Shown here: positions 6,385-8,944 of the stretch, piece after piece | How positions within the stretch are numbered: the stretch's first letter is position 1 | Layout: the number at the start of each line of letters is the position of its first letter | Origin: a virus | Strand: one strand, 5' to 3' | DNA length: 14,963 nucleotides | UHGV virus genome: UHGV-0220714 | Made by a program: the position numbers and the translations under genes | The notes under the pieces: model-generated | What the model saw: only the letters and a program-made list of their open reading frames with translations | The model's database searches: none | Told to the model about the DNA's origin: nothing

Positions 6385-6822
6385 TTATTTATTTGAGAAT
6401 TTTAGGAGTTGGAAAAGTATGATGCTTATATGCATCATTGATGAAGCTGATAGGCCGATCGATAAGGATGGCAACAAAGCAATTGGTTGCTTGCTTGTGG
6501 CCATTAAAAATAACCCCATAAAAAAAACAATGCCAAGCTCCGCAAAGGTCAGTGCATACAGAATAATGACAGATGTCATATATCCGTATGCCTTTACTTT
6601 TTGCATGTTTTTTCCTCTGATGCCTATGACAAACGTCAACGCGGCAATGAGTATTGCGATAGTGGTCCCTGCATATGAAGATATAGCTGCTCCCAGCGCG
6701 TCTCTGTGCTCGGTGAACGAAATTGCTGAGGTAAGGCTACGGAAAATGCAGTAAACGACAATAGTGAAAAGTATTGGTAAAGCGAATAGCAATACGCCGG
6801 GAACGATTTTGTGCTCTCTCAT
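6385..6822 (-). CDS. rexB: RexB-like inner-membrane protein, 145 aa, ~4 TM segments
   Basis: ORF track; four hydrophobic stretches; size and position (between repressor and PL, same strand as cI) match lambda RexB; remembered lambda RexB shares HRD.LGA..SSYAGT.IAILIAALTF. GGGAGG SD 4 nt upstream. Confidence 0.65.
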   Translation of the reverse strand: MREHKIVPGVLLFALPILFTIVVYCIFRSLTSAISFTEHRDALGAAISSYAGTTIAILIAALTFVIGIRGKNMQKVKAYGYMTSVIILYALTFAELGIVFFMGLFLMATSKQPIALLPSLSIGLSASSMMHISIILFQLLKFSNK

Positions 6823-6852: not shown

Positions 6853-7683
6853 TTACTCGTCTTCACAAAAATCTTTATAACTTTTCATTATAACATTTTT
6901 CATTCTTATGTAGCAAATTTCCATTTCCTCTGCAATTTCTTCATTTGTCGATTTGTAAATGTTGGCACTGATGTGCCCCTTGCTTGAAAGGTAGTAGTCA
7001 GTTAGCAAATCAGCTGCGTACTCCTTCGCTTTAAGATGTATGTCACTATGAGAATCATCGGCATTACGAATCAGCTCCTTGGACATGTTGCTGATATTTC
7101 TCATTCTTTTTGGTTTTATTGTTATTTCCACACCTTCAAGAAGCTCTTCTTCGATGGTTTCGATCCCGGCAGCTCTCAGCAAAGGAGACAAAAGCTTGGA
7201 TCCAGACTCAACTCTTAAGGTTGTTCTACCGATGAACTCCATGTCGAGAGCATCATCCCTAGTTACGTCTCTCATCAGAGGTTCTAAACATAGCTTGAAT
7301 GGTTTTGTTATGTTCAATTTATTAGATAAGTAAATTTCAAGCTCACGAACTCTTGGCCCGTGCTGAGTGCAGGCATAACCAATGACGCCATCTTTGATCA
7401 ACAGGAATGATGGAAACGCTAGCGTTTCGTCACTGCCTAATACGTTTTTGATTTCATCGACTGAGAGCGTGGTTTTATTGACCCTTTTAACCAAGTCTGA
7501 GTCATATGTTTTTGTTATTAAATAACATTCTCTGCTAATGTGATGAGCAAATATAAAGTAATCATCAATCTCGAAGGCATTGTTTTTTGCTTTGATTACC
7601 TGTTCGGATAAGCCTGACACCAAATCAATAGGAAAACGTTCCTTACCGTTTTGTTGATAGGAGGCGTAAAAATTAAGTTTCAT
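6853..7683 (-). CDS. rexA: RexA-like protein, 276 aa
   Basis: ORF track; size and position match lambda RexA (279 aa); shared motifs recalled: FPSFL, EPLMR, FIGRTT, IKPK, YLS.KGH, EIAEEM. Confidence 0.65.
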   Translation of the reverse strand: MKLNFYASYQQNGKERFPIDLVSGLSEQVIKAKNNAFEIDDYFIFAHHISRECYLITKTYDSDLVKRVNKTTLSVDEIKNVLGSDETLAFPSFLLIKDGVIGYACTQHGPRVRELEIYLSNKLNITKPFKLCLEPLMRDVTRDDALDMEFIGRTTLRVESGSKLLSPLLRAAGIETIEEELLEGVEITIKPKRMRNISNMSKELIRNADDSHSDIHLKAKEYAADLLTDYYLSSKGHISANIYKSTNEEIAEEMEICYIRMKNVIMKSYKDFCEDE

Positions 7684-7814
7684 ATATCAATCCGTTATAT
7701 ATGGCGTAAGTCATTATATCGTTAAAGTGCATAAAATTTCTTTTTGCATTGAATGCAATGAATGTCGGCTTTAAACCTGCTGGTCACTCTACGCCCGGCG
7801 TACTTTTCCATCCA

Positions 7815-7833
7815 TCACCCAAACGTCTCTTCA
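7815..7833. repeat. 19-bp direct repeat copy 1 (tcacccaaacgtctcttca), 1 nt downstream of stop of gene 7835..8176
   Basis: Exact match to 8186-8204, read directly from sequence. Confidence 0.9.
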
Positions 7834-7834
7834 C

Positions 7835-8176
7835 TCATCCGAAGAAGCAGCAATCCGGGTCAGCACACACAAGCTCAAGCGCATCAGTCAGCGAAAGCTC
7901 AGTACTGTACTGATGCCATTTCATATCCTTCCGCATCCAATAGATTTTCCATCTATCCAGAGAACGTATGTACTTGATTCTTGCTGATGGCAGGATGTTT
8001 GTTTCACCAGGATTGCCCTGCCACACGGGGCGCTGTTCACCGATATCTATCGTTTGGTCATTGATGCTATAAACAATATCCAGTTCATTGCGGATATGTT
8101 CAGGCGGCCTTATGCTTTCAATGAATTGGTGAACTTCTTTTTTGACCGCTTGATATTCAAGGTCAGTGAACGCCAT
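7835..8176 (-). CDS. Hypothetical 113-aa protein inserted between cI and rexA-like (possibly DUF3024-like)
   Basis: ORF track; ATG 8176-8174 with GGAGGA ~5 nt upstream; aromatic-rich core (RWKIYWMRKDMKWHQY) and C-terminal CADPDCC; flanked by 19-bp direct repeats. Confidence 0.7.
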   Translation of the reverse strand: MAFTDLEYQAVKKEVHQFIESIRPPEHIRNELDIVYSINDQTIDIGEQRPVWQGNPGETNILPSARIKYIRSLDRWKIYWMRKDMKWHQYSTELSLTDALELVCADPDCCFFG

Positions 8177-8185
8177 CTATCCTCC

Positions 8186-8204
8186 TCACCCAAACGTCTC
8201 TTCA
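8186..8204. repeat. 19-bp direct repeat copy 2 (tcacccaaacgtctcttca), 10 nt upstream of start of gene 7835..8176
   Basis: Exact match to 7815-7833, read directly from sequence. Confidence 0.9.
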
Positions 8205-8236
8205 GGCCACTGGTTACCAGCTATGTGACGATGAAG

Positions 8237-8944
8237 TCACGAATTTTTCAGCCACTCCCTTGCCTCGATGTCATCCAGATGACGAGATTGCTTCAGAATA
8301 CCAGCCACATACTCCACCTTTGCTACTTGATGATAAGGCAACGTTATAGGCCTGTGGTCCTGGTTAATGCTTGTAAATTGGTATTCTCCATCTCTGTCAT
8401 AGCCAAGAACCTTAATCATGTTGTGTCCTTCAACGGTTCTGACAAACACCTCATCACCCGGGAATACTTTGGTGTTAGGCTCAATGAGTACATATTCTCC
8501 TGATTTTATTCTGGGCCACATGCTGTCTCCTTTCACACGAAGACCAAAGGCATCTGGATCATCGCTATAAATCTTGAGCCACCCATCGCGCTCTTCGGTC
8601 ATCTCGATGGCACCATCAACACCAAGAATTGCCTCACCAACCACGCGCACTAACCCTTTTTTTAATTTGCCAACAAATGAAAGAGTATCTTCATCATTCG
8701 CTCCATTTAACGAAGTGCCGTGCTGAAGCCAAACAACATCAACGTTTAGAAATTTCGCAAGCGCATTCATTTTTTCCTGACGCGGTAAAGACTCAGCATT
8801 AAACCATTTGCTAACGCCTTTGGACGAAAGAGAAAGGGCACGGGCTATGGCCATCCCCCTACCATGTTCATCAAGACCAGCTTCTTTACAGGCTTGCGCT
8901 AGCCGCTGGGCGAATTCTTTGCGCACTTTTTCATTCTGAACCAT
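8237..8944 (-). CDS. cI: CI-type prophage repressor (N-terminal HTH, C-terminal S24/LexA-like peptidase), 235 aa
   Basis: ORF track; GDSMWP serine motif and downstream K in C-terminal domain; divergent from cro across an operator region; no SD before ATG (possibly leaderless). Confidence 0.85.
   Translation of the reverse strand: MVQNEKVRKEFAQRLAQACKEAGLDEHGRGMAIARALSLSSKGVSKWFNAESLPRQEKMNALAKFLNVDVVWLQHGTSLNGANDEDTLSFVGKLKKGLVRVVGEAILGVDGAIEMTEERDGWLKIYSDDPDAFGLRVKGDSMWPRIKSGEYVLIEPNTKVFPGDEVFVRTVEGHNMIKVLGYDRDGEYQFTSINQDHRPITLPYHQVAKVEYVAGILKQSRHLDDIEAREWLKNS

What the first reader, a model, noticed from the sequence alone, without database searches (positions are those of the whole stretch)
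7815..8204. Single-gene cassette bracketed by perfect 19-bp direct repeats, inserted between cI and the rexA-like gene
The sequence tcacccaaacgtctcttca occurs exactly twice in the window (7815-7833 and 8186-8204). The copies sit 1 nt past the stop and 10 nt before the start of the 113-aa ORF 7835..8176, so the repeats delimit precisely one gene plus its RBS. In lambda, cI is followed directly by rexA, so this is an extra gene in the lysogen-expressed immunity operon, a known slot for exclusion or defence cargo. The protein (aromatic-rich core, C-terminal CADPDCC) is not a family I can assign with confidence. It could act alone or with the downstream Rex-like pair.
Basis: partly seen in the sequence, partly recalled or inferred. 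Interest (0 to 1): 0.8.

Follow-up and report, generated by a model that had tools for sequence, protein, structure and literature searches.

The report
Repressor-gene tail relics flanking a prophage gene
The two identical 19-base repeats are leftover copies of the last five codons of a lambda-type repressor gene, marking where related prophages recombined around a small gene of unknown function; this is ordinary phage mosaicism, not a new mobile cassette.

Summary
TCACCCAAACGTCTCTTCA occurs exactly twice (7815-7833, 8186-8204) and brackets the 113-aa ORF 7835..8176(-).

The repeats are not cassette ends. Read on the gene strand, each is ...E-E-T-F-G-stop, the 3' end of a lambda-type cI gene.
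- The right copy ends a 51-nt untranslated relic behind the functional 933W-type cI.
- The left copy is the tail of the lambda-CTD cI that directly precedes this same rexA/rexB pair in sister prophages lacking the 113-aa gene.

The window is a two-parent recombinant: 9000-7808 is 98.4% identical to 933W, and 7833-6338 is 99.6% identical to the cI-rexAB type. The tracts overlap only in the 26-nt patch holding the left copy.

Across 120 viral contigs the 15-nt core ends 47 intact repressor genes and occurs as 42 short relics, with about 50 different downstream flanks. It is a common module boundary.

The gene is 933W L0084, a DUF3024 protein (PADLOC candidate PDC-S43). It is present with both copies (17/19 alike) in 933W and about 630 complete E. 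coli genomes. Its function is untested, and the confident model's fold is uninformative.

Verdict: a known kind of mosaic joint. Low to moderate interest.

The parts
8186..8204 (-). Right copy of the 19-mer. On the gene strand it reads TGAAGAGACGTTTGGGTGA, i.e. (P)EETFG-stop, the relic 3' end of a lambda-type cI gene. It is not part of any long ORF here.
   Evidence: Lambda cI ends CAGTGGCCTGAAGAGACGTTTGGCTGA. The window's 8186-8216 matches the L127 cI end 30/31.
8186..8236 (-). 51-nt untranslated relic tail between the stop codon of the functional cI and the DUF3024 ribosome-binding site. It reads LHRHIAGNQWPEETFG-stop.
   Evidence: The same relic follows the cI of 933W, H-19B and BP-4795 and 16-codon relics in many viral contigs.
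8237..8944 (-). Functional repressor cI of the 933W type (HTH + S24 peptidase). It ends ...EAREWLKNS-stop and has no PEETFG tail of its own.
   Evidence: 98.4% DNA identity to 933W over 9000-7808. Only remote similarity to lambda cI.
8180..8185 (-). Shine-Dalgarno GGAGGA of the DUF3024 gene, directly after the relic's stop codon.
   Evidence: Sequence. Conserved in 933W, L036 and L138.
7835..8176 (-). 113-aa DUF3024 gene (= 933W L0084 / ST933Wp24; PADLOC PDC-S43; phrog_3467).
   Evidence: Pfam PF11225 1.7e-31, full length. PADLOC 2.2e-41. PHROG 2.2e-66. 97-99% identical in Stx phages. AF2 model pLDDT 86 with alpha-beta5-alpha topology.
7815..7833 (-). Left copy of the 19-mer: relic of the last 5 codons plus stop of the lambda-CTD cI gene that precedes rexA in the donor lineage.
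   Evidence: L127 and relatives read ...CAGTGGCC TGAAGAGACGTTTGGGTGA TGGATGGAAAAGTACGCC..., identical to the window from the left copy onward.
7808..7833 (.). 26-nt homology patch shared by both parental types; the crossover site. The wobble base at 7818 (C here, T in all 933W-type left copies) is of the rexAB-donor type. This places the exchange inside the 15-nt core 7819-7833.
   Evidence: 933W tract ends at 7808, L127 tract begins at 7833..
7684..7814 (-). cI-rexA intergenic spacer of the rexAB donor lineage. It contains a palindrome TACGCCGGGCGTA and a 29-codon ORF.
   Evidence: 99.6% identical to L127 over 7833-6338. Sequence.
6853..7683 (-). RexA homologue (276 aa, 41% identical to lambda RexA).
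6385..6822 (-). RexB homologue (145 aa).
6362..6383 (-). Intrinsic terminator closing the cI operon. It is the left edge of the exchanged cargo and matches the annotated tM terminator of 933W.
   Evidence: 8-bp stem, 6 GC, T-run. (window 6338-6381 is 97.7% identical to the 933W 'terminator' feature)..

Best explanation
The 19-bp direct repeat is two relic copies of the 3' end (...Glu-Glu-Thr-Phe-Gly-stop) of a lambda-type cI repressor gene. They are scars of recombination at the distal edge of the immunity module.

Shown:
1. The right copy terminates a 51-nt untranslated cI-tail relic that follows the stop codon of the functional, unrelated 933W-type cI.
2. The left copy is continuous with a cI-rexA spacer that, in sister prophages, directly follows an intact cI gene with a lambda C-terminal domain ending in this very 19-mer.
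3. The window is a two-parent mosaic. One parent is 933W-like (cI-relic-DUF3024-relic). The other is cI(lambda CTD)-rexA-rexB. The two tracts overlap only in the 26-nt patch 7808-7833.
4. The cI tail is a widespread conserved boundary. Identity between different repressor alleles is 0.95 just before the core and falls to random right after the stop codon.

Inferred:
- The exchange was a homologous crossover in this short patch, catalysed by host RecA or by a phage annealing recombinase (the window encodes an ERF-family protein).
- The older event that first placed a cI tail behind the DUF3024 gene was an illegitimate join or deletion with an arbitrary endpoint.
- Once flanked by two tails, the gene reassorts as a one-gene module without any dedicated machinery.

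The DUF3024 gene has a strong ribosome-binding site but no promoter or terminator of its own. It is most likely transcribed with cI from the maintenance promoter through to the terminator after rexB. Its product is a small alpha+beta protein without catalytic motifs. The most likely role (about 35% confidence) is a stand-alone superinfection-exclusion or defence factor acting by protein binding. This is untested.
For: - Repeat verified.
- Translation of the relic. Lambda cI end tcaGccaaacgtctcttcaggccactg.
- 933W has both copies at 17/19 identity.
- H-19B and BP-4795 have the same relic with one exact copy followed by HigB-like cargo and no DUF3024.
- The identical RexA occurs with and without DUF3024. 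The DUF3024-less form has cI...QWPEETFG-stop followed by the same spacer. Its cI C-terminal domain is 100% identical to lambda's.
- Breakpoint map: 9000-7808 vs 933W 98.4%; 7833-6338 vs L127 99.6%.
- Survey of the 15-nt core in 120 viral contigs gave 127 occurrences. Of these, 92 are in cI-tail context: 47 end long in-frame ORFs, 42 are relics of 6-27 codons, and 3 run off the locus end. About 50 distinct downstream flanks follow.
- Identity profile over 31 non-redundant ends: 0.61-0.75 upstream, 0.95 at -8..-1, 0.27-0.30 downstream.
- Other genes are bracketed the same way: an 87-bp mini-ORF in 9 loci, and DUF3024 in Kluyvera between repeats of a different repressor tail.
- DUF3024 sits behind at least three repressor contexts: intact lambda-type cI (L036), another intact cI allele (L084), and the 933W-type relic.
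- No minus-strand promoter or terminator between cI and rexB except the final terminator.
- 933W stk, downstream of this gene, is reported as co-transcribed with cI (PMC3564112).
- An ERF recombinase is encoded in the window.
- Exchange via short conserved flanking sequences is an established model (PMC2327257).
Against: - The homology patch (26 nt, 15 nt between informative sites) is at or below the roughly 30 bp quoted as minimal for Red/RecA recombination (PMC2327257). The crossover mechanism is therefore inferred, not shown.
- The survey was seeded with an exact 15-mer, so the conservation of relic copies is over-estimated.
- Untranslated relics that keep an exact core, and the 0.95 identity just upstream of it, could also reflect selection on the DNA itself.
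- No precise repeat-to-repeat loss of the gene was found in the 933W context among the records listed.
- Co-transcription with cI and any phenotype of DUF3024 were not tested.
Confidence: 0.85

Rival explanations
1. The 19-mers are the attachment or target sites of a dedicated one-gene mobile cassette. Either they are integron- or att-type sites recombined by a site-specific enzyme, or they are a target-site duplication made on insertion.
For: Formally, the filled site equals the empty site (L127) plus 352 bp of new DNA plus a 19-bp duplication. The gene occurs behind several repressor types and in front of several cargos.
Against: - The sequence is the coding end of 47 intact repressor genes.
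- Relic length varies from 5 to 27 codons.
- The Kluyvera homologue is bracketed by a different repressor tail and the Yersinia homologue by none.
- The copies are only 17/19 identical in 933W.
- There are no terminal inverted repeats and no recombinase or transposase next to it.
- 19 bp is far longer than known target duplications (general knowledge).
Confidence: 0.03
2. The cI tail is a functional cis element kept by selection even when untranslated. It could be a recombination hot spot or 'linker' that promotes cargo shuffling, or an RNA signal affecting translation or stability of the downstream gene.
For: - Identity of 0.95 in the 8 nt before the core, higher than in the cI body, with a sharp drop after the stop codon.
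- 42 relics retain an exact 15-mer.
- Diverged relics persist on both sides of the Erwinia homologue at 58% protein identity.
- The stop codon overlaps start codons of downstream mini-ORFs (GTGATG) in several loci.
Against: - No stable or unusual RNA fold around either copy (z = +0.25 and -0.60; the 19-mer itself is unstructured) and no Rfam match.
- No Chi site in the window.
- Relics decay or are absent in other lineages (L006/L052 degenerate; L137 none).
- The exact-match ascertainment inflates apparent conservation.
- Frequent recombination with intact tails explains homogeneity without selection.
Confidence: 0.1
3. The repeat is a chance coincidence or an assembly artefact.
For: None beyond its short length.
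Against: 0 of 200 shuffles reach two copies. The same two-copy arrangement with 371-bp spacing is found in 933W, several viral contigs and independent assemblies.
Confidence: 0.01

Closest known systems
Mosaic module boundaries of lambdoid phages with short conserved flanking ('linker') sequences
   Same: A short sequence is shared by phages whose flanks are otherwise unrelated. It lies exactly at a gene boundary, and the parental tracts switch inside it. This is the model cited in PMC2327257.
   Different: Here the linker is the coding tail of the repressor gene. It has been left behind repeatedly as untranslated relics, so cargo genes end up bracketed by direct repeats. I did not find this specific pattern described in the searchable literature.
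933W immunity operon: cI - L0084 - RuvC-like - stk
   Same: The same cI type, the same relic, the same DUF3024 gene and both repeat copies at 97.6-98.4% DNA identity.
   Different: The RuvC-like/stk/small-ORF cargo of 933W is replaced by rexA/rexB homologues from another lineage. The repeat is 19/19 here versus 17/19 in 933W.
Lambda cI-rexA-rexB operon
   Same: The gene order cI, rexA, rexB, terminator. The cI tail sequence. RexA and RexB are homologues.
   Different: The working repressor is not lambda-type. RexA is only 41% identical. One extra gene and two cI-tail relics lie between cI and rexA.
Phage 434 hex and other accessory genes on the maintenance-promoter transcript
   Same: A small gene immediately downstream of the repressor, expressed in the lysogen (PMC3564112).
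Morons (Hendrix-type extra genes in phage genomes)
   Same: An extra gene present in some relatives and absent in others, at a gene boundary.
   Different: No own promoter or terminator was detected, and the base composition equals that of cI (45.3% vs 45.6% GC).

Membership tests
Pfam DUF3024 (PF11225) | Full-length match to the family profile above the gathering score | tested here: met
   109.2 bits vs cut-off 24.9, residues 4-113 on profile positions 2-112 of 112. The invariant C-terminal C-F-[FW]-G is present.
PADLOC candidate defence family PDC-S43 | Match to the PADLOC profile | tested here: met
   2.2e-41, full length.
PADLOC candidate defence family PDC-S43 | Demonstrated protection against phage infection | not testable with these tools
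   No paper in the library mentions DUF3024. PDC-S43 appears only as a software hit in one preprint.
RexAB abortive-infection system | Adjacent RexA and RexB homologues downstream of the prophage repressor | tested here: met
   PF15969 9e-46 and PF15968 8e-39. PADLOC RexA 1.6e-116 and RexB 3.1e-54. 41% identity to lambda RexA.
Site-specific gene cassette (integron or att type) | Dedicated recombination site with internal symmetry, plus a cognate recombinase nearby | tested here: not met
   The 19-mer is unstructured. The window's main ORFs showed no integrase or transposase domain. The sequence is a repressor coding tail.
Transposable element with target-site duplication | Terminal inverted repeats inside the direct repeats, and a transposase | tested here: not met
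   No inverted repeat at the ends of 7834-8185, only scattered 10-11-nt pairs. The only ORF of 113 aa or more in the interval is the DUF3024 gene.
Moron (autonomous extra gene) | Presence/absence polymorphism between otherwise collinear relatives | tested here: met
   L127-type loci (absent) versus the window and L129-type loci (present), with the identical RexA.
Moron (autonomous extra gene) | Own promoter and terminator | tested here: not met
   No promoter-like or terminator-like site on the minus strand between 8236 and 7684. There are only 9 nt between the relic and the ATG.
Lambdoid mosaic boundary with conserved linker | A short sequence conserved among phages with unrelated flanks, coinciding with the switch between parental tracts | tested here: met

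The most novel reading that the evidence does not exclude
The repressor tail is more than a passive scar. It may be a conserved homology 'linker', maintained at the DNA level, that turns the slot behind the prophage repressor into a recombination-driven array. Lysogen-expressed defence or exclusion genes (DUF3024, Rex, Stk, toxin-antitoxin, mini-peptides) would each be separated by tail copies, and so could be stacked, swapped and lost as single-gene units across immunity types.
Probability: 0.15. Interest if true: 0.55.

Novelty: new member of a known kind. Interest (0 to 1): 0.3.

Why it matters
The result removes a tempting misreading. Perfect direct repeats around a gene in a prophage immunity region need not signal a mobile cassette. 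Here they are duplicated ends of the neighbouring repressor gene.

It also gives a base-pair-resolved example of how lysogen-expressed accessory genes are shuffled between immunity types. The 3' end of cI is a sharp, widely shared boundary behind which about 50 different cargos were seen.

The DUF3024 gene sits first behind the repressor in 933W-type Shiga-toxin prophages (about 630 complete E. coli genomes) and has no known function. That makes it a reasonable but not urgent target for defence or lysogen-stability assays.

Tried and rejected
- **Empty-site search with an artificial one-copy junction from the window.** No full-length hit in phage records, but it led to H-19B and BP-4795, which have a single copy and other cargo.
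- **Artificial precise-deletion junction in the 933W context.** The records listed that cover the whole query (top 25 of the E. coli search; the full-coverage rows of a spread sample of phage records) held it in two pieces 371 bp apart, so the gene is present. The remaining records were not inspected.
- **Search for the DUF3024-rexA junction.** Absent from 5,426 complete E. coli genomes and 50,697 phage records. The arrangement was found only through the exact-protein look-up.
- **RNA-element idea.** Folding z-scores were +0.25 and -0.60, and there was no Rfam hit with E below 0.1.
- **Chi hot spot.** None in the window.
- **Literature.** 'DUF3024' gave 0 papers. 'PF11225/L0084/ST933Wp24' gave only irrelevant hits. 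'downstream of cI / rex genes' was irrelevant. One search failed on term length and one on phrase length.
- **Obligate partnership with Stk or Rex.** Rejected, because homologues sit next to Stk (933W, Erwinia), RexAB (window), an MqsA-like gene (Kluyvera) or a P63C protein (Yersinia).

Full report
**1. The observation**

The 19-mer TCACCCAAACGTCTCTTCA occurs exactly twice in the window, at 7815-7833 and 8186-8204. Allowing three mismatches adds no match, and none of 200 dinucleotide-preserving shuffles gave two copies. The 113-aa ORF 7835..8176 on the minus strand lies between the copies. One base separates its stop codon from the left copy. Nine bases, including GGAGGA at 8180-8185, separate its ATG from the right copy.

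**2. What the repeat is**

On the gene (minus) strand the repeat reads TGAAGAGACGTTTGGGTGA. With its upstream flank, the right copy translates as ...AGNQWPEETFG-stop. Lambda cI ends ...QWPEETFG-stop, encoded by CAGTGGCCTGAAGAGACGTTTGGCTGA.

The working repressor of the window (8237..8944, minus strand) is not lambda-type:
- It is 97.6-98.4% identical in DNA to the cI region of Shiga-toxin phage 933W.
- It ends ...EAREWLKNS-stop.
- It is only remotely similar to lambda cI.

So 8186-8236 is a 51-nt untranslated relic of another repressor's tail, lying just behind the functional cI. The same relic follows cI in 933W, H-19B and BP-4795.

**3. Origin of the left copy**

An exact-sequence look-up of the RexA-like protein found it in two arrangements.
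- In L129, L133, L135 and L136 the order is cI(235 aa)-DUF3024-RexA-RexB, as in the window.
- In L127, L128, L130, L131, L132 and L134 a 231-aa cI is followed directly by RexA-RexB.

That 231-aa cI has a C-terminal domain 100% identical to lambda cI, joined to a different N-terminal domain. Its gene ends ...CAGTGGCC TGAAGAGACGTTTGGGTGA, followed by TGGATGGAAAAGTACGCCGGGCG... This is the same sequence that follows the window's left copy, through to rexA. The left copy is therefore the last five codons plus stop of the cI gene that sits in front of this rexAB pair in the donor lineage.

**4. The window as a two-parent mosaic**

Local alignment gives two tracts:
- Window 9000-7808 versus 933W: 98.4% identity.
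- Window 7833-6338 versus L127: 99.6% identity.

The tracts overlap only in 7808-7833, which is the left copy plus 7 nt (TGATGGATGG on the gene strand, shared by both parents). All 933W-type left copies read ...TTTGGATGA, whereas the window and L127 read ...TTTGGGTGA. The exchange therefore lies within the 15-nt core. This also explains why the repeat is perfect here but only 17/19 in 933W.

The other edge of the swapped cargo is the operon terminator at 6362-6383. It matches the annotated tM terminator of 933W. In effect, the RuvC-like/stk/small-ORF cargo of 933W has been replaced by rexA/rexB.

**5. How general the motif is**

| Class of occurrence | Count |
|---|---|
| In cI-tail context (preceded by GGCC or a close variant) | 92 |
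| - ending an in-frame ORF of at least 150 codons | 47 |
| - short relics of 6-27 codons | 42 |
| - in-frame ORF runs off the locus end, not classifiable | 3 |
| Not in that context (includes 7 left copies behind DUF3024, preceded by GGATGAG, and chance matches) | 35 |

About 50 different sequences follow the stop codon.

Mean pairwise identity among 31 non-redundant intact repressor ends:

| Region | Identity |
|---|---|
| cI body | 0.61-0.75 |
| 8 nt before the core (not part of the search pattern) | 0.95 |
| From 5 nt past the core (just after the stop codon) | 0.27-0.30 |

The cI tail is therefore a sharp, widely shared module boundary.

Other genes are bracketed in the same way:
- An 87-bp unit encoding a 23-residue hydrophobic peptide lies between two cores in nine loci.
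- A Kluyvera DUF3024 homologue is bracketed by direct repeats of a different repressor tail (...FWSAHSW-stop).
- An Erwinia homologue (58% protein identity) keeps diverged copies of the same tail on both sides.
- A Yersinia homologue has none.

The variable relic lengths fit arbitrary (illegitimate) endpoints for the founding events. The sharp shared tail fits later homologous exchange.

**6. The gene**

The protein is a full-length member of Pfam DUF3024. It also matches PADLOC's candidate family PDC-S43 and PHROG 3467, which has unknown function. It is 933W L0084/ST933Wp24.

The gene with its neighbouring cI matches about 630 of 5,426 complete E. coli genomes. Homologues reach down to about 35% identity across Enterobacterales. 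The exact proteins of the window come from E. coli, Shigella and E. albertii assemblies.

It has a strong ribosome-binding site but no detectable promoter or terminator of its own. Its GC content equals that of cI. In 933W the kinase gene further downstream is reported to be co-transcribed with cI (PMC3564112). Co-transcription of DUF3024 with cI is therefore the likely state, though I did not test it.

A confident AlphaFold model (pLDDT 86.3, pTM 0.77) shows a helix, a five-stranded meander sheet and a second helix.
- No solved or viral structure matches significantly by Foldseek.
- No paper in the library mentions DUF3024.

Its neighbours differ between lineages: Stk in 933W and Erwinia, RexAB here, an MqsA-like gene in Kluyvera, and a P63C protein in Yersinia. 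It probably acts alone or with host factors. My best guess is a lysogen-expressed exclusion or defence factor acting by binding. A role in repressor stability, like 434 Hex, is a weaker alternative.

**7. Rivals**

- **Dedicated cassette with att-like ends or a target duplication.** This is contradicted by the coding origin of the repeat, the variable relic lengths, the different bracketing sequence in Kluyvera, the imperfect copies in 933W, and the absence of inverted repeats and of any recombinase.
- **Functional RNA or regulatory motif.** There is no support from folding or Rfam, and no Chi site is present. Selection on the tail as a recombination linker cannot be excluded. The tail is better conserved than the cI body, and many untranslated relics keep an exact core. 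However, the exact-match search biases that impression, and decayed relics exist.
- **Chance.** Excluded.

**8. Comparison with what is known, and novelty**

Exchange of modules through short conserved flanking sequences is an established model for lambdoid phages (PMC2327257). The gene and both repeat copies are already in the 933W sequence.

What is new is modest:
- This particular recombinant (933W-type immunity plus DUF3024 joined to a rexAB pair). It is absent from complete E. coli genomes and phage records but present in draft and metagenome assemblies.
- The pattern that repressor tails recur as relics between cargo genes, which I did not find described in the searchable literature.

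I rate it a new member of a known kind, with interest 0.3. The main caveats are that the 26-nt patch is at the lower limit of homology quoted for Red/RecA, so the crossover mechanism is inferred. Expression and function of DUF3024 remain untested.

Noticed in passing
L020, L046, L051, L055, L062, L083, L099, L103, L107 (e.g. L103 2870-2971): An 87-bp unit encoding a 23-residue hydrophobic peptide (MREYLIVGVVTLLSVVAIVLMVA) is bracketed by two copies of the same cI-tail core. It lies behind several different repressor alleles. Its ATG overlaps the repressor stop (GTGATGA) and its own stop lies in the next tail copy.
   Followed up: partly
L139 2444-2900 (Kluyvera, GCA_040930405.1): A DUF3024 homologue (74% identity) sits behind a short HTH repressor. 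It is bracketed by direct repeats of a different tail: TGGTCGGCGCATGGTTGGTGA upstream and TGGTCGGCGCATAGCTGGTGA downstream. The octamer GCTGGTGA in it is one base from Chi.
   Followed up: partly
L138 2400-4630 (Erwinia aphidicola): A DUF3024 homologue (58% identity) is followed by a 153-aa ORF, a 348-aa protein kinase and a 47-aa ORF. This is the same gene set as 933W (RuvC-like, stk, small ORF). Diverged cI-tail relics lie on both sides, and a conserved hairpin GGTCGCAGAGGTGCGGTC lies downstream.
   Followed up: partly
L019, L046, L054, L059, L062, L080, L090, L097; lambda L002 1690-1727: Some sequences read in frame as ...FWS(A/T)HSW-stop, immediately followed by RPEETFG-stop. This looks as if a premature stop cut off the usual tail. 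I did not confirm that the upstream reading frame is an intact repressor. Lambda itself carries a relic of this second tail type right after its cI stop codon (ATCGGCAAGGTGTTCTGGTCGGCGCATAGCTGA).
   Followed up: no
L127 3174-3869: The repressor of the DUF3024-less rexAB prophages is a chimera. Its C-terminal domain is 100% identical to lambda cI, and its N-terminal DNA-binding domain is different.
   Followed up: partly
window 6887-6916 (minus strand): A good sigma-70-like promoter (TTGCTA, 18-nt spacer, TG-TATAAT, 10/12) lies inside the 3' end of the rexA homologue, pointing at rexB. From memory, this resembles the position of lambda's internal P_LIT promoter.
   Followed up: no
window 7722-7811 (minus strand): A 29-codon ORF (MEKYAGRRVTSRFKADIHCIQCKKKFYAL) starts inside the 26-nt crossover patch and fills much of the cI-rexA spacer. 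It is shared with the L127 lineage. The palindrome TACGCCGGGCGTA lies within it.
   Followed up: no
L006, L052, L084; phage records H168-H179 (e.g. Stx2 II, PA-series phages): A second DUF3024 allele (about 82% identity) matches only in two pieces over residues 12-112. Its DNA shows apparent frameshifts or stops, suggesting a pseudogene in many Stx2 phages. The relic behind it is degenerate and is followed by a hairpin plus T-run (terminator-like).
   Followed up: no
window 7835-7846 vs 7815-7823; L010: The DUF3024 gene's own 3' end (TTC TTC GGA TGA here; TTC TTT GGG TGA in L010, encoding the conserved FFG-stop) resembles the last 9 nt of the cI tail (TTT GGG TGA, TFG-stop). This microhomology might have helped the original join.
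   Followed up: no
window 3780-4415 (minus strand): An ERF-family single-strand annealing recombinase (PF04404, 2.5e-44) is encoded in the same early-left operon. It is a plausible catalyst of exchanges at short homologies.
   Followed up: no
protein cluster of the DUF3024 gene (P0064, P0068, P0067): The 90%-identity cluster includes longer gene calls: 163 aa in Salmonella Newport and 299 aa in E. coli. These may be N-terminal extensions or fusions reading through the relic or the cI end.
   Followed up: no
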